From Nanobdellota archaeon (GTDB lineage Archaea; Nanobdellota; Nanobdellia; Pacearchaeales; GW2011-AR1): a stretch of DNA of 64,000 bases. The notes under the pieces are model-generated. The model ran no database searches. It was given only the letters and a program-made list of their open reading frames with translations, and had not been told where the DNA came from. The stretch spans positions 136,218 to 200,217 of the forward strand of contig JBBSXN010000005.1 in the NCBI GenBank assembly GCA_038045765.1. The letters run 5' to 3'. Shown in pieces: positions 44,250 through 55,939 of the stretch (position 1 is its first letter; the number at the start of each line of letters is the position of its first letter). The translations under genes and the position numbers were made by a program.

Positions 44250-44324
44250 GCTCCCGTAGCTCAGCCTGGATAGAGCATCAGACTTCTAATCTGAGGGTCG
44301 CAGGTTCAAATCCTGTCGGGAGCG
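44250..44324 (+). tRNA. tRNA-Arg(TCT)
   Basis: GCTCCCGTAGCTCAGCCTGGATAGAGCA-TCAGA-CTTCTAA-TCTGA-GGGTC-GCAGGTTCAAATCCTGT-CGGGAGC-G. Confidence 0.9.
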
Positions 44325-44408
44325 CTTCGTTTTATAGGATTTGAATATCTCTTGCTTTTATGCTTGGAGTAAATATTTATAAGTCATTAGTATTAAACTC
44401 AGATGTAC

Positions 44409-44481
44409 GCACAGGTGGCGAAGTGGTTAACGCGCTCGGCTGCAACCCGAGTATTCGGGGGTTCAATTCCCTCCCTGTGCT
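44409..44481 (+). tRNA. tRNA-Cys(GCA)
   Basis: GCACAGGTGGCGAAGTGGTTAACGCG-CTCGG-CTGCAAC-CCGAG-..-GGGGGTTCAATTCCCTC-CCTGTGC-T. Confidence 0.85.
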
Positions 44482-45311
44482 TTTTGTATATTAAGATATC
44501 TATCAATTATTCCAAGATCATGTCTATCTACATCATCTTGTTTTTTCCTTTTTTCCTTTACTAGTCTTATCCAAGGTAACCCTGCGATTCTGATTGTGAA
44601 GTAACCTATTTTTAATTCAATTGGTGAGTACAGACTTGCCGGTAGGCTTAAATCTTGTTTATCCCAAGAAGTTACTTTTACTTCACTAGCTGATAAAATT
44701 TTATGATCTTCCATTATTGCAAACTGATTATTATGCCAGGGAGTTACTTTTTTTCCTTCTCTTGTTTCATAGAAAAATGGATAAACATCAAGATAGCTTA
44801 GTCTTGTTTTATGAGGCCAGAGGATATCTCCCGCTTTATCTATTTCTACAAACCTTAAATTATGGACTTTTTCATCAATAGCTTGCTTTGCAGTTATTTT
44901 TTCATATCTATCAACTTTCCAATGTATTGCTTTTAAACCAGTACTAAATAAGTGAGTTACTAAGGTATATTTACTTGGAGTATGAGAAGGATTTGTTAAA
45001 ACTCTTTCAAGATTTAAAAGTTCTGGAGCATACATACTCAAATGAAATGCATTATGATTTCTATAAATTCCTTTTTGTTCAACCGGAAGACCTAAAAATT
45101 TAGAAATATCTGGACTTTGAGAGATAGTTAGAGGGATTGCTAAACCTCCAGATAACTCTACTTTCAATTGCTTATTGTCTAATTTTATATGCGTTCCTAC
45201 TCTTCTTGAGAGTATTTCTATATCTTTTAGAATTTCTAAAGCTTTTTTTTGTTCGATAACTCTTCCATTTTCTAAAGCTTTTCTATGAATCTGATTAAAT
45301 GTCAGAACCAT
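44463..45311 (-). CDS. hypothetical protein (282 aa); 3' end overlaps tRNA-Cys
   Basis: Clean ORF with no recognised motif. The last ~6 codons plus stop are antisense to the 3' 19 nt of tRNA-Cys. Confidence 0.5.
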   Translation of the reverse strand: MVLTFNQIHRKALENGRVIEQKKALEILKDIEILSRRVGTHIKLDNKQLKVELSGGLAIPLTISQSPDISKFLGLPVEQKGIYRNHNAFHLSMYAPELLNLERVLTNPSHTPSKYTLVTHLFSTGLKAIHWKVDRYEKITAKQAIDEKVHNLRFVEIDKAGDILWPHKTRLSYLDVYPFFYETREGKKVTPWHNNQFAIMEDHKILSASEVKVTSWDKQDLSLPASLYSPIELKIGYFTIRIAGLPWIRLVKEKRKKQDDVDRHDLGIIDRYLNIQKAQGGN

Positions 45312-45421
45312 AAAAATTCATCATTTACCTCTTTTTAAGCTTATATCTCCTATTTTCTCGAGTGAATAAGTTTATAAGGGTGGAATTTTATCTCTATATA
45401 GGAAGGTATAAGGAGGTTAAA

Positions 45422-45571
45422 ATGGCAACACAAGGTTATTGCGTAAAGTGCAAGAAGAAAGTTGACATCAAGAATCCTGTAGAATCTAAGACTTCAAAAG
45501 GCACTAAAATTGCAAAAGGAAAGTGTCCTGACTGCGGAACAACTGTTTGTAGAATGGGCGGATTGAAGTAA
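45422..45571 (+). CDS. small zinc-ribbon protein (49 aa)
   Basis: AAGGAGG 6 nt upstream of ATG 45422. MATQGYCVKCKKKVDIKNPVESKTSKGTKIAKGKCPDCGTTVCRMGGLK has CxxC...CxxC. Confidence 0.55.
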   Translation: MATQGYCVKCKKKVDIKNPVESKTSKGTKIAKGKCPDCGTTVCRMGGLK

Positions 45572-45608
45572 CTTCACACTTTTATTTTTTATACTTTTAA
45601 ATATTATT

Positions 45609-47255
45609 TTATTTTTTCTTTAGAATTCTTATTAGTATTAATCCGATTATTATAAGGGAAATAATGGTTAGGAGAGGTATTTTTAATCTCTCCAGAGTTA
45701 TCTCCTTTTGACTTTTGACTGTAAACCAGACACTACTGCTAGCAATTTCTTGGTCATATTCAATGGTCACATATAATATATGCTGCCCAGACCTAACATT
45801 ATCTGGAAGTTTGAATACCTTTTCTAAAGATAATTCTTTATTTACATAGAGAGTTTCATTTTCAGTTAGTATGATTTTATTATACTGATCTTTGAGGTAG
45901 TAAGTTGCTTTAACTTGAGTTTCTTTTTCACCTAAATTATATAATTTTAATGAAGAGATAAGGTCTTCTCCAGGAGATGCAGTAAGATGGCTATTTTTGA
46001 TACTTATTTTAACATCAAATAAAGACTTTACCGAACTGATAGTTATAGAAACCGGTACACTAATATCTGCAATTCTAGATTTTATTAGTATATTTCCTAT
46101 GTAGTTATCTTCTGATAAGTTTTCACCAGCTATGAAATTTAAGTTAATCTCTTTTGATTGCCCTTTTGTTAAGTTAAATGATTTTTCATTAATTACCAGT
46201 ATATTTTCTAAGTTGGAGGATAATTCGATAGAAATATCTGATCTGTTGGAATTAATTATAGTTAAATTATATTTAGTTAATTCTCCTTTCTTTAAATTAA
46301 CAGCTAGATTATCTGGTTGGACTGTAAATGGAGGGTTTTGTGCTATTCCTCCTGCTCCAGAACCCTCTGAAGAACTACCAGAACTGCTGCTAGAGGAGCT
46401 ACTTCCTCCTGAATCTCCACTTCCTGAAGATGAAGTAGTTTCTTCTGCAGAATATGTCGAGAATGAAGTTACATTAAAGGTTAATGTTCCTGAAGAATAA
46501 GTTATCTTTGCACATTCACTTGATGAACATAAAGACCCATCTTTTAGTATTCTCGGGTTTGAAAAAGTTAAGTTATATAGCGTTAGAATTGCCGATTTGT
46601 TGAAGTTAGGCAAGGCTGAGGAGTTTAATTCAATTCTATTAAAACTTATATTCACATTATTTGATAGGTCGCATAAGTTATTAGAGCATTGTGTAAGATT
46701 GATTGTTTCCTGGAAATTAATCTTCCCAAAATTGCTTTTTTCTAAAGATATATTGCTTAAATTTTGAATTTCTTCATAACCGTAGTCATAAAAATCAGTT
46801 GTTTCTCCTTCAGTTATAAATTCATTATAACTAACATTAAATCTAGTATTATTTATTGTAAAATTAATATTTTTAACAACAACATTATTATCAGTATCAT
46901 TGGCATAGATGCGTAGGGAATGAGCGCCATTTGAAGATATATTAAATAAAATCGGAGCAGTGATAGTTATGTTTGTACCACCATCTAAAGCATACCAAAA
47001 AGCCATTTCATTAACTGAAGTATAATTTAGAAGGATGTTCTCTTTCGTAAAATAAGTCACGTTTCTCGGGCTTATTAGAGCAGTATTTGGTAAAAGAGCA
47101 GTAATTTGAACAGATATAGAAGCATATTGTACTGTTGCTTTGCCCGTAATGGCCTTTCCAGTAATAGTATTATTTGAAGAAGAGATACTAGATGAATTTG
47201 TAGATAATATTATAATCAATAGTAATATTATCAGACAATTAGTATATTGTTTCAT
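45609..47255 (-). CDS. NxS/T-rich surface protein (548 aa) with Ig-like domain, Ser/Gly linker and C-terminal TM anchor
   Basis: Signal MKQYTNCLIILLLIIILS. Domain NVTYFTKENILLNYTSVNE..YALDGGTN...HSLRIYANDTDNN is related to the Ig-like repeats of the giant. Linker SSSGSGDSGGSSSSSSSSGSSSEGSGAGG. Anchor IPLLTIISLIIIGLILIRIL-KKK. Confidence 0.65.
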   Translation of the reverse strand: MKQYTNCLIILLLIIILSTNSSSISSSNNTITGKAITGKATVQYASISVQITALLPNTALISPRNVTYFTKENILLNYTSVNEMAFWYALDGGTNITITAPILFNISSNGAHSLRIYANDTDNNVVVKNINFTINNTRFNVSYNEFITEGETTDFYDYGYEEIQNLSNISLEKSNFGKINFQETINLTQCSNNLCDLSNNVNISFNRIELNSSALPNFNKSAILTLYNLTFSNPRILKDGSLCSSSECAKITYSSGTLTFNVTSFSTYSAEETTSSSGSGDSGGSSSSSSSSGSSSEGSGAGGIAQNPPFTVQPDNLAVNLKKGELTKYNLTIINSNRSDISIELSSNLENILVINEKSFNLTKGQSKEINLNFIAGENLSEDNYIGNILIKSRIADISVPVSITISSVKSLFDVKISIKNSHLTASPGEDLISSLKLYNLGEKETQVKATYYLKDQYNKIILTENETLYVNKELSLEKVFKLPDNVRSGQHILYVTIEYDQEIASSSVWFTVKSQKEITLERLKIPLLTIISLIIIGLILIRILKKK

Positions 47256-47305
47256 ATCTTTTTATGAGGCCATTTATATTTAAATGTGTTTAGAATAGAA
47301 TATAA

Positions 47306-47866
47306 TTATTTATTCTTTGACTTTCTAACAAACCAAATAATTATTGCAATCAAAATTATTATTCCCACTAACATGTAAATATAAGAATTATTAGATTTTA
47401 CTGGTTTTTCTTCTATGATTGTTTTTTCTGTTGGCACTACTATATCGAATGACTTGTCAAATACGCTTCCTAAGCTAAATCCAGAGGCTGAAGGGTTTAC
47501 TGCTGAGAAAGATAAGATAACATTATGTCTCTCTCCTATTTTGGCTGTTGCAGGCATAGTAACTTTTATATTTACTTTGATGTTTTGAGTTTGTGCTGGG
47601 ACATTGTAAACTTCATTTGAATCAATTAATTCAATAAATTCAGCTCCTTTAGTTATACTTACTTTAAAATTAAGATCATCAGTCCCAACCATGTTCTGCA
47701 ATTCAAAAAATATTTCCTTTGATTCTCCTGGTTGAAGGTAAAGTGGTCTTTCGTTATCTCCATCCCAGTAAAATGAAGTGACTCCTGATGCTGAAACAAA
47801 TGAGAGTGTTAAAGCTAGAGCTAAAAGAGAAAACAATGCAAGATTTATTGATTTATTGATTTCCAT
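47306..47866 (-). CDS. surface beta-sandwich protein (186 aa) with C-terminal TM anchor
   Basis: Signal ...LALTLSFVSASG; C-terminal YIYMLVGIIILIAIIIWFV-RKSKNK. Same architecture as ORF 31059-31622. Confidence 0.6.
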   Translation of the reverse strand: MEINKSINLALFSLLALALTLSFVSASGVTSFYWDGDNERPLYLQPGESKEIFFELQNMVGTDDLNFKVSITKGAEFIELIDSNEVYNVPAQTQNIKVNIKVTMPATAKIGERHNVILSFSAVNPSASGFSLGSVFDKSFDIVVPTEKTIIEEKPVKSNNSYIYMLVGIIILIAIIIWFVRKSKNK

Positions 47867-47868
47867 TT

Positions 47869-48831
47869 TTAAACTATTTTAATTGTCCAAGGACCTTGAG
47901 TAGTATTTGTTGTATAAGCTTGAGAGATTATTTCAGTTCCAATTGTTCTTATACAGAAGTATAGCTGTTCTTGACCTGTTGAACCATCATTAGCAGAATG
48001 ATTTCCTATAAGGAGTCTTGATTGATTTATACTAGTAAATATGCTTTTATTCATACTAGTTGCGTTGTTTAATCCGCCAGAAATATCACATTCTCCACTA
48101 CTTCCAGTTGTAACTCCTACAGATATATTAGCAGCCCAAATACCATATACTGCGTTTGTTTCTCCTATCAAGTCTGTTGCGTTAATTTGAACATTACCTG
48201 CAGTAATGTTCTTGTTACCTGTGTTGTTTAAAAGAAGAGGATCGTTATTTGAAGTCTGGTTAGATGAACCTCTAGATAGTGTTGCGAAAGTCAAGTTACC
48301 TGGACTAGATACAAAGGCAGAAGTTTGACCAAGAGTGAATGTTGCTGTATGATTAACTACGTTTGTACTACTTAAGTCTCCTGCAGACACATTAACAGAC
48401 CAAAGTCCAGATGCGTCAAAATAGTTAATTGCTATAGAACAAGTAAAGTTTGCATAGTCGGTTGAAAAATTAGCAGTGCCTACGCAACCAGTTGAATTTG
48501 ATTGTCTAGTTACTTCATTTGTTTTATTGAACTGTGCTTTAGCGTTAGTTCCATTAATATTGGTAAAACCATCTACATCGTGTACAGTGAAATTTAACAT
48601 TACTAATGTAACTCCATTTTCAGTAATAGAAGGAGCTGCATTAATAATCACCATAGTTATATTTGGAGGAGTACCTGCTATGCTAATATTTAATCCAACA
48701 TTTTGACTTGTTGCTCTACCCGTTATAGAACTAAAAAAATCTGATAAATCTGCTGAAACGAATGAAATCATTAAAATTGAAAATAGTAAAAATCCAAAAA
48801 TAAAACTAGCTCCTCTTTTTTTGTTTTCCAT
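47869..48831 (-). CDS. surface protein paralogous to the C-terminal ectodomain module of the 2210-aa giant
   Basis: Track start 48846 is GTG. ATG 48831 lies ~25 nt after TTTAAATATAAAA. N-terminus MENKKRG-ASFIFGFLLFSILMISFV is pilin-like K-R-G-A-S. Shares long identical runs with the giant (NDPLLLNNTGNKNITAGNVQINATDLIGETNA; NDGSTGQEQLYFCIRTIGTE) and ends ...GPWTIKIV-stop. Confidence 0.65.
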   Translation of the reverse strand: MENKKRGASFIFGFLLFSILMISFVSADLSDFFSSITGRATSQNVGLNISIAGTPPNITMVIINAAPSITENGVTLVMLNFTVHDVDGFTNINGTNAKAQFNKTNEVTRQSNSTGCVGTANFSTDYANFTCSIAINYFDASGLWSVNVSAGDLSSTNVVNHTATFTLGQTSAFVSSPGNLTFATLSRGSSNQTSNNDPLLLNNTGNKNITAGNVQINATDLIGETNAVYGIWAANISVGVTTGSSGECDISGGLNNATSMNKSIFTSINQSRLLIGNHSANDGSTGQEQLYFCIRTIGTEIISQAYTTNTTQGPWTIKIV

Positions 48832-48865
48832 CACTCCATTAATCACATATTTTTATATTTAAACC

Positions 48866-51800
48866 TTACTGTGGTGCGATGTATTCTTTTTCTTCTCTAT
48901 TTTCTGTTGCTTTTTTGTATGTTGTCCAAATATTTCTTTGATCCCTATTCAATAACTTAGCAATTTCCACATATTTTAGACCTTTTTCTTTAAGATATAT
49001 TATAGATGATTCAATTATAGTATGATCTCTATTTCCAATGAATGAAAGTGGAAGTAATGGAGTGTTTTCATTTATCTCTAAGCTATAACTTATCTTTTTA
49101 CTCGCTTTATTATATGCAGTCCAGATAGTTCTTTGATCTCTATTCAACAATCTAGCAATTTCCACATAACTTAGACCTTTGTTTTCTTTAAGATATTTAC
49201 ATACTGCTTCTAATCCTCCAAGACCTTTTGTAAATATACTTACAGGAATAGTATCATTTATATTTTCATTTATAATTTGAAGTAATTCTTGTTTGGTAAT
49301 GGAGTATTTCTTTTGTATTTCTTCAAATAAGATATTTATTACTTCAGATTGTGGAACTGATTCTTTAATTGTTATTTCTGTTTTAGTTATTAATAATGCT
49401 TTTAGCAATTTATCTTTAGTTATTTTCTTCTTCTTTCTTGAAAGAGAGCCAAATGCAAATGCTACTGCTAATATTTTTATTGTCCAAGGACCTTGAGTGG
49501 TGTTTGTAGAATACGCTTGTCCTATGTTTTCAGTTCCAATTGTTCTTATGCAGAAGTACAATTGTTCTTGGCCTGTTGAACCATCATTAGTAGAATGATT
49601 ACCTACAAGAAGAATAGATTGGTTTACGGCGTTAAAATAGCTTTTATTCATACTTGAAGCGTTCCCATTAATTCCAATATCGCATTCTTTATTGCTTCCA
49701 GTGAAGATTCCTACAGAGATATTAGCCGCATAGATTCTATAGGCTGCATTCGTTTCTCCTATCAAGTCTGTTGCATTAATCTGAACATTACCTGCAGTAA
49801 TGTTCTTGTTACCAGTATTATTCAAAAGAAGAGGATCGTTTGATGCTGTTTGGTTAGATGCCCCCCTAGATAATGTTCCAAATGTTAAATTACCCGGACT
49901 AGTTACAAATGCTGAAGTTTGACCTAGAGTGAATAATCCAGTTTGATTAACTGCATTCGCACTGCTTAAATCGCCGATAGATGCATTAACTGTCCAATCA
50001 CCAGAACCATCAAAATACCATATATTAACTGTACATGAGAAATTAGCATAGTTTGTTGACCAATTAGCAGTGTTTATACATGAAGGATCTTTTCTTGTTG
50101 TTTCAAGAGTTCTATTAAATGAAGCTTTAGCGTTGCTTCCATTTATATCTGTAAAACCGTCAGCATCATAGACTGTAAAGTTTAATTTTGCAGAAGTGAA
50201 AGAGTTTTCAGTTATTGAGAATGAGGAAGAGATAGTAACATTTGTTATAACTGGTGCAGTATTACCTGAACTTATTGTTACAGTTCTTGATCTGCTGTTT
50301 CTATTTGCTGCTGAATCAACTGCATAAGATGTGAATGAATGGGAACCAGTTGATAGGTTTGTGAAGTTATTATAATATTTATTTGCAGAAGCATTGTATA
50401 ATGACTTTATTTCTGCTAAGGATAAAGATCTATTGAAAATCATAATTTCATCCATCGAACCATTGAAATACTCCACTGCTCTTCCTGGGCTGTTGATAGA
50501 TATGACATTAAAACTCGATGTTCTTGTTGGATTAATACTAGATTTAATACCATTTAAATAAGCACTACTTACATTACTGCTATTCTGACTTATAACTATA
50601 TGAAACCAATTAGTAGTATCAATCGTGAGATCGGTGTACGTAGTTGGCGAAGAACTCTCAAAATAGAGTTTATTTGTAGTTTGAGTAATAAAAATACCAT
50701 CTCCTCCTCCGAAACCTATTAAAGTTTTCCAGTTATTAGATGTTAATTCATTTCTTTTTATCCAAAAAGAAAAAGTAAATTCTTGTGGAGGAGCAAGGGA
50801 AATAGCGGGGACGCTAACCCAATCATCGCCACCATCAAATACAAAACTTTTTCCGAATCTTCCAGAACCTTGGCTTGAGTTCTGTGAAGCTCCATTTTTA
50901 GCAGAACCATTATTTATTCCAGTTAAATCAATGGGATCGCTGCTCGCATTTAAATCATCCATTGTCCACCAGCCTACAAGTGAATTGTCAAAGTTTGTTA
51001 CGACATAGTGGTCTGGGTCTGATAAGCCTGACAATGAACCATTAGATGAAACATTTACTACTATTGCTGTTGCTGATTGCGAAGAAGCATCTGCAGGAGT
51101 ATTTCCTATAAATGAAATTGCAGGTTTTGTTGTATCTACATAGAAAGTAATATTTGATGTTAAATTAGTATTTCCAGCAGTATCATTTGAATATACTTTG
51201 AAGTTATATGTTCCATCAGCTATTGAAGTATTTGTTGCATTGAAGCCTGTTCCGGATGCATTTCCAGTCATAGAATAGTTTGTTAATCCATTATCTAATG
51301 AATATCTAACAGAACCATTTTCATTCAGACTTACATTGAAAGTTATAGAGGATGAATTGTAAAATGCAGTCTGTGGATTTATTATTGTAACAATTGGGCT
51401 TGTTAAGTCTATACTGAATGTAACATTCGCTGTATTGTTATTATTTCCAGCAGTGTCATTAGCATAAACTTTGAAAGTGTAGCTTCCTGCAGCTATGCTT
51501 CCATTGCTTCTGTTAAGCATTGATCCTATTGTTCCTCCAGTAGAATTTAGAAGAGTATAATTATTCAATCCATTATCTAAAGAATATTTTGCTGAACCTT
51601 GCTCATTCAAGCTCACATTGAACATTAGAGGTAGATGAATTGTGCTGTAAGTAGTGTTGGCTGGGAAGTTTATTGTTATTACTGGTGAGGTTGTGTCTGG
51701 TGTTATTAGATAGTCTGTTGTTGCATTAGCAGGATTTGTTGTTGTTGCTTGCAGTATCGGAGTGAAGAATCTATTTGAATCTGATGTTAAAAGAAAGTTT

Positions 51801-54800
51801 GGAAGGACATGAGTTGCTGTTGTGGGAATTGTAAAATTGTTTAATGACCAGTTATCGTTACTATTTCTTGCAGTAATGTTTTGATAGTCTGTAAAAGTCC
51901 AGAGTGCACGTCCTTTAACATAAATCTCTGAAACTTCTCCAGCTGTTAAAGAACGATTGAAAATCATAACTTCGTCGATTGATCCTTGGAAATCTTTTGC
52001 TGTTGCGCCAGGAGATACTCCATCTGTTCCTATTTTTACTGCTGTTGATGAAGAGTCCCAAGTTGCTTTTGTATCTGAAGCAACAACTGAACCATCTAAA
52101 TATATTGTAACATTACCTGCATTTATTGTACACACAACATGCTGCCAGACACCTGCAGTGACTGTTCCGCCAAGTAATTCATCTATTCCATATTTTCCAC
52201 AGCTTATAGCTTGAGCAGTATCAATTCCAAAAGCGTAACTGTTTGTTGTCCTTTCAATTATTCCTTCTCTTTGTGCGCCTAAAGAGGAAGGTTTTATCCA
52301 AGCCATTAGTGTCCCTTGAGTCATTAAGTTAAGTCTTGAATCTGAAGAAGCCGGAACGTTAACATAATCTCCTGAGCCGTCAAATTGCAATGCTCTGTCA
52401 TAAACAGAATCAGTTATTGTTGTGTTGCCTCCAATTATTGTCCCGTTGTGAAGACTTCTTCTGTCTACTGCAAGAGTTTGATTTTCATTTAAATTTGAAC
52501 GATTATCAAAATTGAAATATGCTCCAAGCAAATTTAAAGATGAATCTATATCTGAAGTGTTGTAGTCATATGAAATGTCCCAAGTTCCTATTCTAGCGCT
52601 GATATTGGTTCCAAATTTTCTATTATAGTTTTGAAGAGAAAGGTTGAAATTATTTACATTTGAGGTTATGTTGAAAGCTCTTATTTCCTGAATACCTGAT
52701 GAGACATATCTTCTTGAAGTGTTTTGATATATTTGAGAAACTTGGGTATCATTTAATGAAATGTTTAGGAACATAAATTCATCAATGGCTCCTTTCCAGG
52801 TTTGACCACCGTTAAACCAGTCACCAATACTTATCAATGTGTCTGGAGCTCCTATGCTTCCAGGAGTGTTTGTTAAATGATAATATGTTGTGTTTATGTA
52901 TAGGCCCAGACCCGAATCATTTTTTACTAAAGTATAATATTGCCAGCCAGTCCCTGCAGGATTTATAGTTGTATCTATTTGACCTATACCATTACCCAGT
53001 TCAACTCCTATAAAATTTTGAGAGGTATAACCTAAAGTAACCCATTCAGCATTTCCAGGTCTATTTGTAAAGATACCTATTCCGGCAGCTGCATCTGCAT
53101 CTAGTCTTGCCCAGACACTCGCTGACCAGTTTCTATTTGTCCAGTCTATAGGAATAAGGTCTACACTTATATAATCCCCTGCTCCGTTTAATTGGAAGCA
53201 ATTATTAATTACACAGTTTGTTGAGTTAGTTATATTGTTAGCTATAAATGTACCATTGTAATTATTTGCAAAATCATATGAAGTGGTTGCATCATCTTTG
53301 TCAAAAGGATAGTAGGCAATTATATTATCGCTTATTTCATGAACAGAAGATGTTTTATCAGTAGATAAGTGGGAATATTGGGAATTGGCTAAGCCTTCGA
53401 TGCTAATATTATTTCCAGGTGTTGAACTATTTTCTCTTGAGAAAATAAGAGTGAATGTTTGATTTGATAAATGTGGAACTACCCATTCAATGTAATCAAG
53501 GTTTCCATTTCCATCTAAGTCGTAAGAATCAAAAGGCATTTCCTGTAGAATGTAATTTTGGTTTTGTATTGAGTTTGTTAAATTTGTAAAATTATTTTCT
53601 AAATTGATGTAAGGTATGTTTGAAACTGGTATTTCAGAGTTTTCTATTAGATTTGTTTCTGAAATATTATTAACTTCTTTTAATTGAATTGAATTGTTTT
53701 CATAGTTGTGCCAGAAAAGCTTAATGTTTTCAGAAGAGCTAATCGGAATAGAATTTGGTATATTTGTTGAAGCTATTACGTCTGTGTAATGTAAAGAATC
53801 TGGACCAGAAATTAAGATTTCTTTTCCTGCTTCAGTTTCTTTTTCTTGTGAAGTTGGAGCTTCGGTTTCGTATTCAATTGTATAATCCTTGGAATTGTCA
53901 TCAAGAATTATATTAACTTCAGGATTGACTTGTTCTGAAGAGTCAGATATAGCATATCCTGTGAATGCGCTTCTTAATTTATTAAAGAAGTTTTTGAAGA
54001 AGCTAGGTTTGTTCGAGTTGAAATTACTTATTACATTACCAGTTATTGTATTTGAAACTCTTTGAGAATTTTCTTCTTTGGAAGTTTCAGTGACTTTGAT
54101 ATTTTCAGCATTTTCAGGCAAAGAAAGAGTTAAGTTTTCTACATCATCAAATGAAATATTCTTTTCCCATTTGACTGGTTCTCCAACAGTTATTTTACTT
54201 CTTGTTGTTGAAATGCTGACTGTGTTAGAAGAGATTAAAACTAGGAATTCATTGCTTTCTAGACTTTCATTTTCTCTGTAGGCAATTATCTTTCCCTTTG
54301 TTGCACCTTTGAAGTTTTCTAAAGGAGTTAATGATATGATGTCTCCAGTGATGGAAGAGTTTAGATTATTACCTATAAATTCATAGAAGTAAGAATTTTC
54401 AAAGTAATCAGTCAGAGTGAGATTAATTGTTTGGTTTATTGATATTCTTTGAGTAGGTATTTCTTTTATTAGTTTTAAGGTGGAATTTGATATTTCAGTT
54501 ATATTAGATATAGTTTCATTTAGTATTGTTTCGTTTGTTTGTGTTTGGTTAAATGTATCTGTAAGGTTTAAGATTTCTGAGTTGTTTAGTAAATCTTCTG
54601 TTTGGTTGAGTTCTTGCTCAATATTGTCTAATTCTATTATTTGATAGTTTAATGAATCGATGTTTATTTCAGAATTGTCTAATTCTATTCTTATTGTGTA
54701 GATTGATTTGTTTAAGTTTAAATTTTCTAAGTCGCAAGTATCTTGACAGTAATCTGTGAAAGTTATCTCATTTAAAATCTCATTAGGAGCGGAGGTAGAG

Positions 54801-55498
54801 TCGCTTGGGGAAGGGCTCACTTCCTCTTTTGGGCTATCTACCTCCTTCTCCTTGGTTTGAGTGGGATTTGTGATGTCTTCAGTTACTTCAGAATTGTAGC
54901 CTGTTTGAACTGCGAAACCTGTTAAGAAACTATTTTTATTTTTTTCGGCTTTGAGAGAATTTGAATCAAGAATCAAAATGTCATCTAAGTATATTTTTGC
55001 TGAACCAGAATCCAACATTTTTCCAGAAATCTTTAGAGAAGTTAATTGACCTAGATTCTTTATTTGCCAGGCATAACTTGAAGAATTTCCTAAATTAAGA
55101 TTTATATCTTCAGTATAAGTTTGAGAGTTATCTTGCGTAGCGAAACCAATTATTTTCCCGCCTTGCGTTGCAAATAATAATATGAAAATGGAAATAAAAA
55201 AGAAACTTGCGAGAGAAGAAATTATATTGCTTCTTTTTATTATACCTCTTTCGCTTTCAATTATATTTTTACATTCTAAAATATAGTTGTCGTAATATTT
55301 AATCCATTCTTCAAAGGTCTTTTCGCCTTGTTTTTTTGAAGCTAAATTTTCGTATTCTTCGTAAGAAATTTCTCGGTTAAGACATTTATTTTTTAGTACT
55401 TGTAATTGATTTACAAAGTGCTTTCTATAACCTTCACAAGTCTTAATTCTGCTTTCGTAACTAACAATCCTACGTCTAGCAAGGTGAGCCCTTCCCAT
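48866..55498 (-). CDS. giant (2210 aa) membrane-anchored surface protein: 3x LamG/ConA-like lectin modules, Ig-like repeats, C-terminal tandem HTH tail
   Basis: Uninterrupted 6.6-kb ORF. N-terminal ~90 hydrophilic aa, then TM IISSLASFFFISIFILLFA. Three Laminin_G_3-like signatures: CFQLNGAGDYISV...WKGAIDEFMFLNISL; ALQFDGSGDYVNVP...FQGSIDEVMIFNRSL; SFVFDGGDDWVSVP...FNGSMDEIMIFNRSL. Tail after ILAVAFAFGSLS-RKKKK has two LSYVEIARLLNRDQRTIWTAYNKA-type HTH motifs. Confidence 0.8.
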   Translation of the reverse strand: MGRAHLARRRIVSYESRIKTCEGYRKHFVNQLQVLKNKCLNREISYEEYENLASKKQGEKTFEEWIKYYDNYILECKNIIESERGIIKRSNIISSLASFFFISIFILLFATQGGKIIGFATQDNSQTYTEDINLNLGNSSSYAWQIKNLGQLTSLKISGKMLDSGSAKIYLDDILILDSNSLKAEKNKNSFLTGFAVQTGYNSEVTEDITNPTQTKEKEVDSPKEEVSPSPSDSTSAPNEILNEITFTDYCQDTCDLENLNLNKSIYTIRIELDNSEINIDSLNYQIIELDNIEQELNQTEDLLNNSEILNLTDTFNQTQTNETILNETISNITEISNSTLKLIKEIPTQRISINQTINLTLTDYFENSYFYEFIGNNLNSSITGDIISLTPLENFKGATKGKIIAYRENESLESNEFLVLISSNTVSISTTRSKITVGEPVKWEKNISFDDVENLTLSLPENAENIKVTETSKEENSQRVSNTITGNVISNFNSNKPSFFKNFFNKLRSAFTGYAISDSSEQVNPEVNIILDDNSKDYTIEYETEAPTSQEKETEAGKEILISGPDSLHYTDVIASTNIPNSIPISSSENIKLFWHNYENNSIQLKEVNNISETNLIENSEIPVSNIPYINLENNFTNLTNSIQNQNYILQEMPFDSYDLDGNGNLDYIEWVVPHLSNQTFTLIFSRENSSTPGNNISIEGLANSQYSHLSTDKTSSVHEISDNIIAYYPFDKDDATTSYDFANNYNGTFIANNITNSTNCVINNCFQLNGAGDYISVDLIPIDWTNRNWSASVWARLDADAAAGIGIFTNRPGNAEWVTLGYTSQNFIGVELGNGIGQIDTTINPAGTGWQYYTLVKNDSGLGLYINTTYYHLTNTPGSIGAPDTLISIGDWFNGGQTWKGAIDEFMFLNISLNDTQVSQIYQNTSRRYVSSGIQEIRAFNITSNVNNFNLSLQNYNRKFGTNISARIGTWDISYDYNTSDIDSSLNLLGAYFNFDNRSNLNENQTLAVDRRSLHNGTIIGGNTTITDSVYDRALQFDGSGDYVNVPASSDSRLNLMTQGTLMAWIKPSSLGAQREGIIERTTNSYAFGIDTAQAISCGKYGIDELLGGTVTAGVWQHVVCTINAGNVTIYLDGSVVASDTKATWDSSSTAVKIGTDGVSPGATAKDFQGSIDEVMIFNRSLTAGEVSEIYVKGRALWTFTDYQNITARNSNDNWSLNNFTIPTTATHVLPNFLLTSDSNRFFTPILQATTTNPANATTDYLITPDTTSPVITINFPANTTYSTIHLPLMFNVSLNEQGSAKYSLDNGLNNYTLLNSTGGTIGSMLNRSNGSIAAGSYTFKVYANDTAGNNNNTANVTFSIDLTSPIVTIINPQTAFYNSSSITFNVSLNENGSVRYSLDNGLTNYSMTGNASGTGFNATNTSIADGTYNFKVYSNDTAGNTNLTSNITFYVDTTKPAISFIGNTPADASSQSATAIVVNVSSNGSLSGLSDPDHYVVTNFDNSLVGWWTMDDLNASSDPIDLTGINNGSAKNGASQNSSQGSGRFGKSFVFDGGDDWVSVPAISLAPPQEFTFSFWIKRNELTSNNWKTLIGFGGGDGIFITQTTNKLYFESSSPTTYTDLTIDTTNWFHIVISQNSSNVSSAYLNGIKSSINPTRTSSFNVISINSPGRAVEYFNGSMDEIMIFNRSLSLAEIKSLYNASANKYYNNFTNLSTGSHSFTSYAVDSAANRNSRSRTVTISSGNTAPVITNVTISSSFSITENSFTSAKLNFTVYDADGFTDINGSNAKASFNRTLETTRKDPSCINTANWSTNYANFSCTVNIWYFDGSGDWTVNASIGDLSSANAVNQTGLFTLGQTSAFVTSPGNLTFGTLSRGASNQTASNDPLLLNNTGNKNITAGNVQINATDLIGETNAAYRIYAANISVGIFTGSNKECDIGINGNASSMNKSYFNAVNQSILLVGNHSTNDGSTGQEQLYFCIRTIGTENIGQAYSTNTTQGPWTIKILAVAFAFGSLSRKKKKITKDKLLKALLITKTEITIKESVPQSEVINILFEEIQKKYSITKQELLQIINENINDTIPVSIFTKGLGGLEAVCKYLKENKGLSYVEIARLLNRDQRTIWTAYNKASKKISYSLEINENTPLLPLSFIGNRDHTIIESSIIYLKEKGLKYVEIAKLLNRDQRNIWTTYKKATENREEKEYIAPQ
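49469..50265 (-). repeat. about 0.8-kb coding segment duplicated in neighbouring gene (47872-48675)
   Basis: Nucleotide and protein similarity is visible over the whole module. Mismatches are spread over all four bases. Confidence 0.7.
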
Positions 55499-55500
55499 TA

Positions 55501-55548
55501 CTTATCTTATATGTAAAAGAGCTTATAAATCTTATCTAATATGTAAAA
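55501..55548. promoter_or_regulatory. two 18-nt direct repeats bracketing the TATA box of the giant gene
   Basis: CTTATCTTATATGTAAAA (55501-55518) and CTTATCTAATATGTAAAA (55531-55548) are 17/18 identical and 30 nt apart. ATTTATAAG lies between them on the gene strand. Repeat 1 ends 3 nt from the ATG. Confidence 0.5.
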
Positions 55549-55580
55549 TAATACTTACTATTTATGTAATTAGAAAGGTA

Positions 55581-55663
55581 AAGTAGTGCCTAATTTGTTT
55601 ATTTTTTAAGTTTATGTAGTGGGTAATTGGGAAGATTTATAAATTTATAAGTAGTGCCTAATT
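55581..55663. promoter_or_regulatory. three spaced copies of GTAGTG-NN-TAATT upstream of ORF 55665
   Basis: AAGTAGTGCCTAATT at 55581-55595 and 55649-55663 (identical); degenerate TATGTAGTGGGTAATT at 55613-55628. The last copy ends 1 nt before the ATG. Confidence 0.45.
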
Positions 55664-55664
55664 C

Positions 55665-55895
55665 ATGGAGATAAAAAAGAAAATTTTGAAAGGTTTCTTT
55701 GAGAATCTTTTAAGTGGTAAAAAGAAGTTTGAAATTAGATTAAATGATGAAGATTTTAAAGGAGTTAAAGAAGGAGATTTTCTTATTCTAGAAGAATGGG
55801 ATGAAATTAATAAAAAATACACTGGAAGAAAGCTTAGAAAGAAGATTAGCTATTTTTTAAGATCTAAAGATTTGACTTTTTTTAGTCAAAAATAA
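55665..55895 (+). CDS. ASCH/DUF3850-like small protein
   Basis: FFENLLSGKKKFEIRLNDEDFKGVKEGDFLILEEWD resembles the DUF3850 pattern (sGkKtfEiRkND.df.vGD.l.L.E). From memory. Confidence 0.5.
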   Translation: MEIKKKILKGFFENLLSGKKKFEIRLNDEDFKGVKEGDFLILEEWDEINKKYTGRKLRKKISYFLRSKDLTFFSQK

Positions 55896-55939
55896 GTTAA
55901 TGAAAAAGGATTTATTGTTATGTCTTTGGAGGATTGTTG

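What the first reader, a model, noticed from the sequence alone, without database searches (positions are those of the whole stretch)
48866..55498. Giant LamG-lectin surface protein with an in-frame tail carrying two sigma70-r4/LuxR-like HTH motifs
Seen in the 2210-aa ORF, in order: (1) About 90 hydrophilic residues. (2) A strong TM helix (IISSLASFFFISIFILLFA, about nt 55166-55225). (3) About 1900 aa very rich in NxS/T sequons. This contains three modules with the Laminin_G_3/ConA-like signature (about 52720-53210, 51900-52400, 50395-50860) and two tandem ~95-aa Ig-like repeats (about 51125-51700). (4) A short hydrophobic stretch ILAVAFAFGSLS followed by RKKKK. (5) A 200-aa tail (48866-49468) containing no Met at all. 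The tail holds two near-identical segments: GLSYVEIARLLNRDQRTIWTAYNKASKK (about 49094-49174) and GLKYVEIAKLLNRDQRNIWTTYKKATEN (about 48899-48976). Their pattern (L-x-x-x-EIA-x-x-L-x-x-x-x-x-T-I/V-x-x-x-x-x-x-A) is that of sigma-70 region 4 / LuxR-type helix-turn-helix. The paralogous neighbour gene stops exactly where the tail begins (...GPWTIKIV-stop versus ...GPWTIKIL-AVAF...). Inference: the tail was gained by fusion to a downstream HTH gene. The product could be a ToxR/CadC-like two-pass protein coupling extracellular carbohydrate or host-surface binding to DNA binding, or a tethered regulator released by proteolysis. I know of no described archaeal giant adhesin with this architecture. 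Caveat: the second hydrophobic segment is short (about 12-16 residues), so the topology is uncertain. An internal TTG (about 49406-49408) could also initiate a separate ~180-aa HTH protein.
Basis: partly seen in the sequence, partly recalled or inferred. Interest (0 to 1): 0.8.

Follow-up and report, generated by a model that had tools for sequence, protein, structure and literature searches.

The report
Giant surface protein with DNA-binding tail
A 2210-residue lectin-rich surface protein of a tiny DPANN archaeon ends in a double DNA-binding module. The same design recurs in dozens of related species, and a conserved 17-base site always sits on the gene's own promoter, so the protein probably links the cell surface directly to gene control.

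Summary
The fusion is real. In 61 of 80 Woese-/Pace-/Nanoarchaeota species genomes the same 2xHTH module ends a giant ORF of 1200-3540 aa, behind the same junction: ...GxW-T-I-[RK]-I, a short hydrophobic run, then 4-10 K/R.

In 16 further species the module is a separate ~180-aa gene. It lies immediately upstream of the surface-protein gene, not downstream, and those giants end at ...WTIKV* with no hydrophobic or polybasic segment.

Fused and split giants share an undescribed ~90-aa cytoplasmic N-domain plus TM1, and a conserved downstream operon (paralogue, ~190-aa and ~550-aa anchored proteins).

New here: a 17-bp imperfect palindrome, TACAyAnATArTAAGTA, flanks the TATA box of every such operon. 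There were 93 hits in 1.27 Mb against ~1 expected, all at these promoters, including standalone HTH genes not used to build the matrix. The window sites are 55499-55515 and 55552-55568.

N-glycosylation sequons are enriched 2.3-fold in ectodomains but not in N-domains or tails, which supports a two-pass topology.

Best reading: an autoregulatory, membrane-tethered transcription regulator whose logic resembles a sigma/anti-sigma pair. It is not a sigma factor. DNA binding, tail topology and the signal are inferred, and the second membrane crossing is anomalously short. No paper describing this was found.

The parts
55552..55568 (-). Distal operator-like site TACATAAATAGTAAGTA, upstream of the TATA box. 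It ends 53 nt before the ATG.
   Evidence: Exact match to the pattern. PSSM score 24.3 bits. Same position (-52/-53) in most of the 33 orthologous promoters.
55529..55545 (-). Weaker middle copy TACATATTAGATAAGAT. Its 3' end overlaps the TATA box.
   Evidence: Read from the sequence. It scores below the 17-bit threshold. A similar weak middle copy is visible in several orthologues.
55522..55529 (-). TATA-box-like TTTATAAG, 24-31 nt before the ATG. This implies a leaderless or near-leaderless mRNA (inferred).
   Evidence: TTTATAAG or a one-base variant is at the same place in most of the 33 orthologous promoters.
55499..55515 (-). Proximal operator-like site TACATATAAGATAAGTA. It ends 1 nt before the ATG, between the TATA box and the start codon.
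   Evidence: 19.0 bits. Orthologues have a site ending at -1/0 in most loci.
48866..55498 (-). Coding sequence of the 2210-aa giant protein.
55226..55498 (-). Conserved cytoplasmic N-domain (residues 1-91; consensus MGRTRLAKAxIxEL...ISYxxYxE...DGKTIxEWIxYYDxYIKECE). It has no Pfam, NCBIfam or PDB relative.
   Evidence: Alignment A2, 41% mean column identity over 33 species. No family or structure hits. Also present in split-form partners.
55169..55225 (-). TM1, a signal-anchor helix (residues 92-110).
   Evidence: KD 2.54. Present in 32 of 33 full-length orthologues (KD 2.0-3.1).
52736..53185 (-). Laminin_G_3 domain 1 (residues 772-921).
   Evidence: E 6.9e-14.
51929..52381 (-). Laminin_G_3 domain 2 (residues 1040-1190).
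   Evidence: E 2.1e-25.
51113..51715 (-). Two Big_13 Ig-like repeats (within residues 1262-1462).
   Evidence: E 2.8e-13.
50405..50836 (-). Laminin_G_3 domain 3 (residues 1555-1698).
   Evidence: E 2.9e-20.
49469..50296 (-). Conserved C-terminal ectodomain (residues 1735-2010), paralogous to the next gene. Its last beta strand is WTIKIL.
   Evidence: tblastn 70.7% identity. The same domain precedes the junction in orthologues whose ectodomains otherwise differ. AF2 models residues 2006-2010 as a strand.
49439..49474 (-). Short hydrophobic segment ILAVAFAFGSLS (residues 2009-2020), the candidate second membrane crossing.
   Evidence: Conserved in 61 fused orthologues and absent from split-form giants.
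49424..49438 (-). Polybasic stop-transfer-like run RKKKK (residues 2021-2025).
   Evidence: Orthologues have a median of 8 K/R in the next 12 residues. AAG codons are enriched there.
49253..49423 (-). Helical linker (residues 2026-2082, three helices). It is also present at the N-terminus of standalone family members.
   Evidence: Alignment A1. AF2 helices.
49094..49252 (-). HTH1 (residues 2083-2135), recognition helix RDQRTIWTAY.
   Evidence: Pfam Sigma70_r4_2 and HTH_23. AF2 pLDDT >90. Nearly invariant R, T, I, W, Y.
48878..49057 (-). HTH2 (residues 2148-2207), recognition helix RDQRNIWTTY.
   Evidence: Pfam DUF2774 and Sigma70_r4_2. AF2 pLDDT >90.
47869..48846 (-). Operon gene 2: 325-aa secreted paralogue of the giant's C-terminal ectodomain, ending GPWTIKIV*.
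   Evidence: Homologue in 70 loci.
47306..47866 (-). Operon gene 3: 186-aa surface protein with a normal-length C-terminal TM plus a basic end.
   Evidence: In ~50 of the 57 HTH-scan loci with a hit, the homologue starts ~1.0-1.3 kb after the giant's stop.
45609..47255 (-). Operon gene 4: 548-aa surface protein with a C-terminal TM plus KKK.
   Evidence: In most of the 61 HTH-scan loci with a hit, the homologue starts ~1.6-2.2 kb after the giant's stop.

Best explanation
The gene encodes a two-pass membrane protein that is both a giant glycosylated surface lectin or adhesin and a transcription regulator of its own operon.

Topology: the ~90-aa N-domain stays in the cytoplasm. TM1 exports ~1900 aa of ectodomain (three LamG domains, Ig-like repeats and a conserved C-terminal domain). 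A short hydrophobic run followed by RKKKK stops transfer, so the last ~190 aa stay inside. That tail is a three-helix linker plus two sigma-r4-like HTH domains.

DNA target: the tail, acting as a pseudo-dimer of two non-identical HTHs, recognises the 17-bp imperfect palindrome TACwTA-N5-TAwGTA. The site occurs once between the TATA box and the start codon, and once about five helical turns upstream.

Consequence: occupancy of the proximal site should block TFB/RNA polymerase recruitment. Each finished giant molecule would then feed back negatively on the operon from the membrane. A change at the surface (ligand or host contact, or proteolysis) or sequestration by the N-domain would modulate that feedback.

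The split form found in relatives has the same layout as a bacterial ECF sigma/anti-sigma operon: an autoregulated promoter, then the HTH gene, then a gene for N-domain + TM + ectodomain.

Shown: the architecture, its conservation, the fused-versus-split alternation, the promoter-specific motif, the sequon and charge asymmetry, and the HTH fold.

Inferred: DNA binding to that motif, the sign of regulation, the cytoplasmic location of the tail, N-domain/HTH contact, and the signal.
For: Conserved fusion
- 61 of 80 species loci are fused, with an identical junction.
- The representative library holds 2259 clusters. Many are 1000-5919 aa with the match at the extreme C-terminus.
- The frame is preserved without any conserved internal start.
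- Lys codon AAG makes up 49.8% inside the polybasic run against 21.9% elsewhere (Fisher p 2e-23). A-runs there are at most 8 nt, which suggests avoidance of slippery poly(A).

HTH module
- Pfam Sigma70_r4_2 scores 35.7 bits against a 25.7 cut-off.
- The AF2 model has mean pLDDT 84 and both HTH domains exceed 90.
- Domain-level structural neighbours are SigE r4 on -35 DNA, SigR r4, RcsB (0.8 A over 41 residues), Cbp1 and Tc3.

Cytoplasmic tail
- Split-form giants end at ...WTIKV* with no hydrophobic or polybasic segment. That segment appears only when the HTH is fused.
- Sequons, observed/expected: ectodomain 2.30 (2528/1101), N-domain 1.14, tail 0.96.
- Net charge: N-domain +6, ectodomain -89, tail +10.
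- Standalone relatives have no signal peptide or TM.

Operator
- 93 PSSM hits in 1.27 Mb against 1.1 in shuffles. All are on the coding strand at promoters of HTH-tailed giants, or of standalone HTH genes that were not in the training set (L066, L067 x6, L070, L071, L075-L078, L080, L085).
- In the 64-kb window the exact pattern occurs only at 55499-55515 and 55552-55568.
- An unbiased 8-mer enrichment recovers the same words, e.g. TAATAAGT in 28/33 promoters against 0.34 expected.

N-domain coupling
- An HMM built from fused giants only hits the protein encoded right after the standalone HTH gene in L075, L078, L080, L067 and L081 (E 1e-10 to 2e-18).
Against: - The second hydrophobic segment is too short for a canonical TM helix. 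In the window the 19-residue KD mean is 0.99. Across orthologues the uncharged run has a median of 8 residues, with 12-17 from the conserved Trp to the first K/R, against a median of 24 for TM1.
- Its first residues form the last beta strand of the ectodomain. AF2 gives the rest pLDDT <50.
- No dedicated topology predictor was available.
- No experiment links the HTH to the motif. The motif could be bound by another factor, and its proximal copy could act in the 5' end of the mRNA.
- In some orthologues HTH1 starts only 13-22 residues after the polybasic run. That would hold DNA hard against the membrane unless the tail is cleaved.
- Whole-model Foldseek E-values are weak (best 0.025) and the PDB profile search is marginal (E 0.03).
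- The N-domain/HTH contact could not be tested.
Confidence: 0.6

Rival explanations
1. The tethered regulator is released. The architecture is as in the main model, but the tail works only after regulated proteolysis at or near the polybasic junction (as with Notch, SREBP or RseA). It is then a soluble 2xHTH regulator equivalent to the standalone family members. The giant ectodomain is the sensor whose engagement triggers the cut.
For: - Standalone relatives show that the module works as a soluble ~180-aa protein.
- In about ten orthologues HTH1 begins only 13-22 residues from the polybasic run, which is awkward for DNA binding at the membrane.
- The junction is disordered in both AF2 models, so it would be accessible to a protease.
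Against: - No protease gene is part of the conserved operon.
- No conserved cleavage motif is seen beyond the K/R run.
- DPANN cells are small, so a tethered tail could plausibly reach the chromosome (general knowledge, not tested here).
Confidence: 0.2
2. The tail is extracellular. The hydrophobic run is too short to span the membrane, so the polybasic stretch and the HTH-like domains are exported with the ectodomain. There they would bind an anionic ligand outside the cell, such as extracellular or host DNA, or host envelope polymers. The promoter motif would belong to some other regulator.
For: - The hydrophobic stretch is sub-threshold (KD 0.99 over 19 residues; median 8 uncharged residues across orthologues).
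- AF2 gives no confident helix there.
- DPANN archaea are thought to depend on host-derived biomolecules (general knowledge).
Against: - The hydrophobic + polybasic unit appears only when the HTH is fused, and is absent when the giant ends in the same domain without it.
- Sequons are enriched 2.3-fold in ectodomains but sit at chance level in tails.
- The tail is basic while the ectodomain is strongly acidic.
- Five to ten consecutive K/R are a strong barrier to Sec export (established positive-inside rule).
- The closest relatives are cytoplasmic proteins whose own promoters carry the motif.
Confidence: 0.1
3. The tail is a protein-interaction module, not a DNA binder. The r4-like domains bind the conserved cytoplasmic N-domain, or another partner, to close or oligomerise the giant. 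The 17-bp motif is then the site of an unrelated factor or a core-promoter/initiator element specific to this operon.
For: - Sigma region 4 domains are well-known protein-binding surfaces for anti-sigma factors. Structural neighbours include r4/anti-sigma complexes 3hug, 8z6g and 1or7.
- The N-domain always accompanies the HTH, either in one chain or in the next gene.
Against: - The most conserved residues are in the third (recognition) helices: R, T, I, W, Y of RDxRTIWTxY.
- The motif is a 6-5-6 imperfect palindrome spaced for two HTHs, and it tracks HTH genes even when the next gene has no clear N-domain match (L066, L070, L076).
- Protein binding and DNA binding are not mutually exclusive.
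Confidence: 0.07
4. It is an artefact. A missed stop, a frameshift or a mis-assembly joins a surface-protein gene to a separate HTH gene. Alternatively, the tail is normally made alone from an internal start such as TTG 49406-49408.
For: - The tail has no Met, and an in-frame TTG exists.
- Metagenome assemblies do contain breaks in such long genes (L001 N-gap, L002 frameshift, L027, L054).
Against: - The same in-frame junction occurs in 61 independent species genomes and many metagenome contigs.
- There is no conserved internal start. 14 of 53 orthologues have no ATG/GTG/TTG at all in the interval.
- No operator or TATA lies inside the gene.
- Codon choice in the K-run avoids slippery A tracts.
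Confidence: 0.03

Closest known systems
Transmembrane transcription regulators / membrane-bound one-component systems (ToxR, CadC, TcpP; archaeal ArnR/ArnR1). Census in Demey et al. 2023, PMC10269533; ArnR in PMC6396743.
   Same: One polypeptide combines a DNA-binding domain on the cytoplasmic side with a membrane anchor and an extracytoplasmic part. Regulation is presumed to occur from the membrane. It meets the operational definition used in the census (a DNA-binding domain plus at least one TM).
   Different: - ToxR and CadC have an N-terminal OmpR-type winged helix, one TM and a small periplasmic sensor.
- Here the HTH is a tandem sigma-r4-like pair at the C-terminus, behind a second and unusually short membrane crossing.
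- The outside part is a 1900-aa (up to >5000-aa) glycosylated LamG/Ig adhesin-like ectodomain.
- There is an extra conserved cytoplasmic N-domain and a conserved four-gene surface-protein operon.
- A text search of the census paper for 'DPANN' and 'Nanoarchaeota' found neither term.
Bacterial ECF sigma / anti-sigma pairs (SigE-RseA, AlgU-MucA, SigW-RsiW).
   Same: - The split form has the same operon logic: an autoregulated promoter, then a small r4-type HTH gene, then a translationally coupled gene for a protein with an N-terminal cytoplasmic helical domain, one TM and an extracytoplasmic domain.
- The HTH fold matches region 4.
   Different: - There is no region 2, and TIGR02937 scores below cut-off (21.7 against 42.9).
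- Archaea use TBP/TFB, not sigma factors.
- The module has two r4-like domains.
- The N-domain has no similarity to known anti-sigma domains and no HxxxCxxC motif.
- In the window, regulator and 'anti-regulator' are one chain.
Sigma-70-like proteins reported in Woesearchaeota (fam00359; Castelle et al. 2021, PMC8204110).
   Same: Same lineages. That paper notes sigma-like proteins with no identifiable anti-sigma partner and an unclear control mechanism.
   Different: I could not establish whether fam00359 is this family. The tail matches only region 4, twice. That paper does not mention fusion to giant surface proteins or a promoter motif.
Giant membrane-anchored surface proteins of Nanohaloarchaeota (SPEARE; SVXNc_0300, BNXNv_0298; PMC10266531).
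   Same: They are very large DPANN surface proteins with Ig-like adhesion modules, thought to mediate host contact. They also carry a domain type normally found in the cytoplasm (a VirB4/TraG-like ATPase).
   Different: They come from a different lineage, with no HTH tail, no shared N-domain and no shared operon. They are proposed to be secretion devices, not regulators.
Archaeal Tfx family and tandem-HTH DNA binders (Cbp1 2lvs; Tc3 transposase bipartite domain 1u78).
   Same: Tfx is the nearest curated archaeal r4/LuxR-like HTH family. Cbp1 and Tc3 show that several HTHs in one chain can read one extended DNA site. They are among the top structural neighbours.
   Different: Tfx scores 20.7 bits against a cut-off of 60.25. 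These are soluble proteins with no membrane or surface-protein context.

Membership tests
Sigma-70 family (ECF) sigma factor | Region 4 HTH (-35 recognition) | tested here: met
   Pfam PF08281 Sigma70_r4_2 scores 35.7 bits against a cut-off of 25.7, with two stretches. Foldseek domain-level matches to SigE r4 (2h27) and SigR r4 (5fgm) have TM 0.55-0.60 normalised by target.
Sigma-70 family (ECF) sigma factor | Region 2 (core RNA polymerase binding, -10 recognition) and the whole-protein family score | tested here: not met
   No Sigma70_r2 hit at E<=1. TIGR02937 sigma70-ECF scores 21.7 bits against a cut-off of 42.9, covering only profile positions 128-162. It is not a sigma factor.
LuxR/GerE-type HTH (PF00196) | Match to the GerE model | tested here: not met
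   GerE is absent from the Pfam hit list at E<=1 for the tail. Only structural resemblance to the RcsB DNA-binding domain was seen.
Transmembrane transcription regulator (operational class of Demey et al. 2023) | A predicted DNA-binding domain plus at least one predicted TM region in one protein | tested here: met
   HTH domains. TM1 with KD 2.54.
Transmembrane transcription regulator (operational class of Demey et al. 2023) | The DNA-binding domain lies on the cytoplasmic side | tested here: inconclusive
   Indirect support comes from sequon depletion, charge, and co-occurrence of the hydrophobic + polybasic unit with the fusion. However, the second crossing is sub-threshold and poorly modelled.
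ToxR/CadC-like receptors | N-terminal OmpR-type winged HTH, single TM, C-terminal periplasmic sensor | tested here: not met
   No Trans_reg_C hit. The HTH is C-terminal and r4-like, and the chain needs two crossings.
Anti-sigma factor (ZAS / RseA-like) for the N-domain | Recognisable anti-sigma domain, or an HxxxCxxC zinc motif, at the cytoplasmic N-terminus | tested here: not met
   No Pfam or NCBIfam hit. The best PDB profile E-value is 0.09, to coiled coils. Only one conserved Cys. Topology and gene order resemble an anti-sigma factor, but the sequence does not.
Anti-sigma factor (functional sense) | Physical binding of the N-domain to the HTH module | not testable with these tools
Only genetic coupling is shown.
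Laminin_G_3 / concanavalin-A-like lectin superfamily (ectodomain) | Match to PF13385 above the gathering score | tested here: met
   Three domains at 52.7, 90.0 and 73.4 bits against a cut-off of 27.6.
Tfx family (TIGR00721) | Whole-protein score above the cut-off | tested here: not met
   20.7 bits against 60.25.
Autoregulated operon with cognate operator | A conserved, promoter-specific DNA motif that co-occurs with the regulator gene | tested here: met
   93 hits against 1.1 expected, all at promoters of HTH-encoding operons, including loci outside the training set.
Autoregulated operon with cognate operator | Direct binding of the regulator to the motif | not testable with these tools
   Needs EMSA, footprinting or DAP-seq.

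The most novel reading that the evidence does not exclude
Woese-, Pace- and Nanoarchaeota have an undescribed surface-to-promoter signalling device. A giant glycosylated adhesin has two cytoplasmic ends that form a built-in regulator/anti-regulator pair, with the tandem r4-like HTH tail held by the conserved N-domain. Contact of the ectodomain with a host or substrate frees or re-positions the tail. The tail then switches the adhesin operon through the TACwTA-N5-TAwGTA operators. This would be an archaeal analogue of ECF sigma/anti-sigma signalling collapsed into one polypeptide. It would also use an unusually short (about 8-12 residue) hydrophobic plus poly-K/R segment as a membrane crossing.
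Probability: 0.25. Interest if true: 0.88.

Novelty: new variant of a known kind. Interest (0 to 1): 0.76.

Why it matters
DPANN archaea are mostly uncultured episymbionts. How they sense and respond to host contact is an open question, and their gene regulation is almost unknown.

This analysis turns one odd ORF into a defined, widespread system. It has 2259 sequence clusters and 61 fused examples among 80 species genomes. Its parts are concrete and testable: a regulator module, a candidate operator with exact coordinates, a partner domain and a conserved four-gene surface operon.

It may help explain the sigma-like proteins with no anti-sigma partner noted in Woesearchaeota (PMC8204110), although I could not show that they are the same family. 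It extends membrane-tethered transcription regulators to adhesin-scale proteins. It also raises a membrane-biology puzzle: how a hydrophobic run of about 8-12 residues plus poly-K/R returns a chain to the cytoplasm.

The DNA-binding prediction can be tested in vitro without culturing the organism.

Tried and rejected
- The bacterial-type promoter/terminator scan over 44300-55800 gave chance-level counts (54 against 53.1; 4 against 4.2). It is irrelevant for an archaeon.
- Rfam on 55300-55900 found no RNA family, so the upstream motif is not a known RNA element.
- tblastn of the tail against the window found no second HTH copy.
- The 1735-aa ORF 33647-38854 was first suspected to be the 'paralogous neighbour'. 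It is unrelated and has no Pfam hit.
- The whole-model Foldseek search gave no hit at E<=1e-3. Only domain-level resemblance is usable. PDB sequence-profile searches were marginal for the tail (E 0.03) and null for the N-domain.
- Two protein-database searches with the N-domain returned only 2 relatives (word-index limits), so no deep permitted alignment could be made for it.
- Poly(A) ribosome sliding or programmed frameshifting at the K-run, as a way to make a tail-less form, was considered. It was rejected as a general mechanism because A-runs are short and AAG is enriched.
- An archaeosortase-type C-terminal sorting signal was considered for the hydrophobic + basic unit. It was rejected because 190 conserved residues follow it and no PGF-like motif precedes it (sequence).
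- Six literature searches found no description of the architecture.

Full report
**1. What is in the window.**
ORF 48866..55498 (-) encodes 2210 aa. In order it contains:
- Residues 1-91: hydrophilic, net charge +6.
- Residues 92-110: the strongest hydrophobic segment of the protein (Kyte-Doolittle 19-residue mean 2.54).
- About 1900 aa that are acidic (net -89). This part carries 97 NxS/T sequons against ~52 expected.
- Three Laminin_G_3 domains at residues 772-921, 1040-1190 and 1555-1698 (E 7e-14, 2e-25, 3e-20).
- Two Big_13 Ig-like repeats in residues 1262-1462.
- A 276-aa C-terminal ectodomain (1735-2010) with no Pfam match. It is 70.7% identical to the product of the next gene, 47869..48846, which ends GPWTIKIV-stop.
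- ILAVAFAFGSLS, then RKKKK, then a 185-aa Met-free tail.

The tail alone hits Pfam Sigma70_r4_2 at 35.7 bits (cut-off 25.7), in two stretches. It also hits HTH_23 and DUF2774 above cut-off.

**2. The fusion is real, old and common.**
A database search with the tail found 175 relatives, all from DPANN archaea. The most similar ones show the same junction: the end of the ectodomain (...QEQLYFCI...GxWTI[KR]I), a short hydrophobic run, 5-10 K/R, then two or four HTH units.

A scan of one genome per GTDB species found 277 encoded relatives, and I analysed the best 80 loci. Nearly all are Woese-, Pace- or Nanoarchaeota MAGs.
- In 61 loci the module is the C-terminus of a stop-to-stop ORF of up to 3540 aa, with that junction.
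- In 16 loci it is a free-standing 148-188-aa gene (174-188 aa in 15 of the 16).
- 3 loci are unresolved.

A profile search of 1.84 billion representative proteins found 2259 clusters (1396 at E<=1e-30). Many of the listed proteins are 1000-5919 aa with the match at the extreme C-terminus.

The ectodomains in front of the junction differ. L001, for example, has beta-helix-like repeats instead of LamG. What is conserved is therefore the C-terminal ectodomain, the junction and the tail.

No internal start is conserved. 14 of 53 orthologues have no ATG, GTG or TTG between the K/R run and HTH1. Only 23 have an ATG, at varying positions.

Within the K/R run, AAG makes up 49.8% of Lys codons against 21.9% elsewhere in the same genes (Fisher p 2e-23). 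The longest A-run there is at most 8 nt. This fits selection against slippery poly(A), that is, for faithful read-through.

Assembly artefact and separate translation of the tail are therefore effectively excluded.

**3. A fused form and a split form of one system.**
Thirty-three fused giants are complete. At least 28 of them start with a conserved ~90-aa domain followed by TM1. The consensus is MGRTRLAKAxIxELKxRI...ISYxxYxE...DGKTIxEWIxYYDxYIKECE. This domain has no Pfam, NCBIfam or PDB relative.

In the split form the ~180-aa HTH gene lies immediately upstream of the surface-protein gene and usually overlaps its start (L004/L059, L067, L075, L078, L082).

An HMM of the N-domain, built from fused giants only, hits the protein encoded right after the standalone HTH gene. 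The hits are in L075, L078, L080, L067 and L081 (E 2e-18 to 1e-10), and weakly in three more loci.

Split-form giants end ...GGAWTIQVI*...GGSWSIQVALEP* or ...GGSWTIKVDPQN*. They stop at the last strand of the same C-terminal ectodomain, with no hydrophobic or polybasic segment. The hydrophobic + polybasic unit therefore exists only where an HTH module follows it.

Downstream, the operon is conserved:
- A ~320-aa secreted paralogue of the C-terminal ectodomain.
- A ~190-aa C-terminally anchored protein, starting ~1.0-1.3 kb after the giant's stop.
- A ~550-aa C-terminally anchored protein, starting ~1.6-2.2 kb after the stop.

In the tblastn, the window's paralogue, 186-aa and 548-aa proteins hit 70, 58 and 62 loci respectively. 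The spacing above holds in most of the fused loci.

**4. A promoter-specific DNA motif.**
Aligning the 130 nt upstream of the 33 complete giants and of the window revealed a 17-bp element, TACAyAnATArTAAGTA. It can be read as the imperfect palindrome TACwTA-N5-TAwGTA. It occurs in two to four direct copies:
- One copy ends 0-1 nt before the ATG, just downstream of a TTTATAAG TATA box.
- One copy lies 51-52 bp further upstream.
- A weak copy sometimes lies between them.

A matrix built from these sites was scanned over 1.27 Mb (85 loci plus the window, both strands) at 17 bits. It gave 93 hits against a mean of 1.1 in ten block-shuffles. Every hit is on the coding strand, just upstream of one of three kinds of gene:
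- An HTH-tailed giant.
- A standalone HTH gene that was not used to build the matrix: L066, L070, L071, L075, L076, L077, L078, L080, L085, and L067 with six copies at a 32-bp period.
- A gene that turned out to be the true start of a broken giant or a second giant, beginning MGRTRLAKA... (L027, L035, L054, L061).

In the 64-kb window the exact pattern occurs only at 55499-55515 and 55552-55568. An unbiased 8-mer enrichment recovers the same words; TAATAAGT is in 28 of 33 promoters against 0.34 expected. No Rfam family matches the region.

The motif tracks the gene for the HTH module whether that module is fused or free. The third (recognition) helices, RDxRTIWTxY and RDQRNIWTxY, are the most conserved part of the family. 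The economical inference is that this is the module's operator and that the operon is autoregulated. This is an inference, not a demonstration.

**5. Fold of the tail.**
With a 51-sequence alignment, AF2 gives mean pLDDT 84.4 and pTM 0.69. The model has three linker helices, then two four-helix HTH units with pLDDT >90.

Foldseek against the PDB gives no hit at E<=1e-3 for the whole two-domain model. Nearly all the best neighbours are HTH DNA binders:
- Cbp1, the CRISPR-repeat-binding multi-HTH protein (E 0.025).
- ECF sigma factors (AlgU, SigE, SigH).
- SigE region 4 on -35 DNA and SigR region 4 (TM 0.55-0.60 normalised by target).
- The RcsB DNA-binding domain (0.8 A over 41 residues).
- The bipartite Tc3 transposase domain.

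It is not a sigma factor. There is no region 2, TIGR02937 scores below cut-off, and archaea do not use sigma factors. GerE/LuxR and Tfx also fail their cut-offs.

**6. Topology.**
Evidence for a cytoplasmic tail:
- The co-occurrence rule in section 3.
- Sequon statistics over 33 giants, observed/expected: ectodomain 2528/1101 (2.30), N-domain 13/11.4 (1.14), tail 37/38.6 (0.96).
- The charge pattern of +6 / -89 / +10.
- Five to ten K/R directly after the hydrophobic run (positive-inside rule, established knowledge).
- Closest relatives are soluble cytoplasmic proteins.

Evidence against:
- The hydrophobic run is anomalously short. The uncharged stretch has a median of 8 residues, with 12-17 from the conserved Trp to the first K/R, against a median of 24 for TM1.
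- In the window the 19-residue KD mean is only 0.99.
- AF2 models residues 2006-2010 (TIKIL) as the last beta strand of the ectodomain. It leaves residues 2010-2027 unstructured with pLDDT <50. The tail-only model draws a low-confidence helix there.

How so short a segment crosses a membrane is unexplained. It is the weakest link in the model.

**7. Most likely mechanism.**
The protein is a giant surface lectin or adhesin whose C-terminal tail is a membrane-tethered regulator of its own operon.

The proximal operator lies between the TATA box and the start of a probably leaderless mRNA. In characterised archaeal systems, bound repressors at that position block RNA polymerase recruitment (established knowledge for regulators such as MDR1, Phr and TrmB; not tested here). 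Negative feedback by finished protein is therefore the simplest reading. The distal site, five helical turns away, could act cooperatively. Tails with four HTHs (L044, L052, P0002, P0003, P0010) could span both sites.

The split form's layout is promoter, then r4-like HTH gene, then a coupled gene for a cytoplasmic N-domain + TM + ectodomain. This is the layout of bacterial ECF sigma/anti-sigma operons. It suggests that the N-domain holds the HTH until something happens at the surface.

Whether the fused tail acts while tethered or after cleavage is open. In about ten orthologues HTH1 begins only 13-22 residues from the membrane, which favours release.

**8. Comparison with what is known, and novelty.**
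- The protein fits the operational class of transmembrane transcription regulators (PMC10269533). It differs from all described members in HTH type and position, pass number, ectodomain scale and operon.
- Archaeal membrane-bound regulators such as ArnR/ArnR1 (PMC6396743) are unrelated in architecture.
- Castelle et al. 2021 (PMC8204110) noted sigma-70-like proteins in Woesearchaeota with no anti-sigma partner. Whether that family is this one could not be checked.
- Giant nanohaloarchaeal SPEARE-type proteins (PMC10266531) are the nearest precedent for a DPANN giant surface protein carrying a cytoplasmic-type domain. They are unrelated in sequence.
- Six full-text searches found no description of the tail fusion, the N-domain, the operon or the motif.

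I rate it a new variant of a known kind. It is well supported as an architecture and as a regulon signature. Biochemical proof of DNA binding and of topology is still missing.

Noticed in passing
window 55583-55592 and 55651-55660 (- strand); also L021, L025, L026, L038, L044, L048, L049 at -131 to -89 from the giant's ATG: A second conserved upstream word, TAGGCACTAC, occurs twice in the window's giant promoter region and nowhere else in the 64 kb without a mismatch. Across the loci, 11 of 23 exact GGCACTAC occurrences lie 89-131 nt upstream of giants in 7 species, usually as two copies flanking a TTTAAAT-like box. It could be a site for a second regulator or an upstream or divergent promoter.
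   Followed up: partly
L067 6649-6846: The standalone HTH gene of this Woesearchaeota MAG is preceded by six copies of the 17-bp motif. Five sit at an exact 32-bp period and one lies next to the start codon, an unusually large operator array.
   Followed up: no
window 49424-49438 and the equivalent K/R runs of 53 orthologues: Lys codon AAG is used 49.8% of the time in the polybasic run against 21.9% elsewhere in the same genes (p 2e-23). No A-run there exceeds 8 nt, which looks like selection against ribosome sliding on poly(A).
   Followed up: yes
P0002, P0003, P0005, P0010; L044, L052, L063, L064: Some giants carry a duplicated tail with four HTH units (tails of 278-382 aa). Others have lost the helical linker, so HTH1 starts 13-22 residues after the K/R run.
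   Followed up: partly
L061 5558-10462 and from 20256; L035 from 1681: Some genomes have a second N-domain giant gene with its own operator pair on the same contig: ~10 kb further along in L061, and ~140 nt after the first giant's stop in L035.
   Followed up: partly
window 33647-38854 (+): Another giant ORF (1735 aa) has an N-terminal signal-like segment, many Cys residues and no Pfam hit at E<=1. It is unrelated to the finding.
   Followed up: no
window 44250-44325 and 44409-44481 (+): tRNA-Arg(TCT) and tRNA-Cys(GCA) genes lie just beyond the end of the surface-protein operon. The 282-aa ORF 44463-45311 (-) overlaps tRNA-Cys and has no homologue in any related locus, so it may not be a real gene.
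   Followed up: partly
L021 (labelled Bacillota) and L077 (labelled Methanosarcinales): Two contigs carrying typical members of this DPANN-specific system are filed under non-DPANN bins. They are probably mis-binned.
   Followed up: no
window 48847-48865: The 19-nt gap between the giant's stop and the paralogue contains TTTAAATATAAAAATA, about 30 nt before the ATG of MENKKRG. This is a possible internal TATA box that would give the paralogue its own leaderless transcript.
   Followed up: no
L053, L066, L070, L071, L083, L085: In a further variant the parts are split three ways into separate genes: the HTH gene, then a 131-337-aa coiled-coil protein (a weak N-domain match in L071 and L085), then a ~300-aa TM protein. 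That TM protein resembles the membrane-proximal start of the giants' ectodomain (...ITGKVIQGKE..FSENLNLxVxESGxYEWNV).
   Followed up: partly
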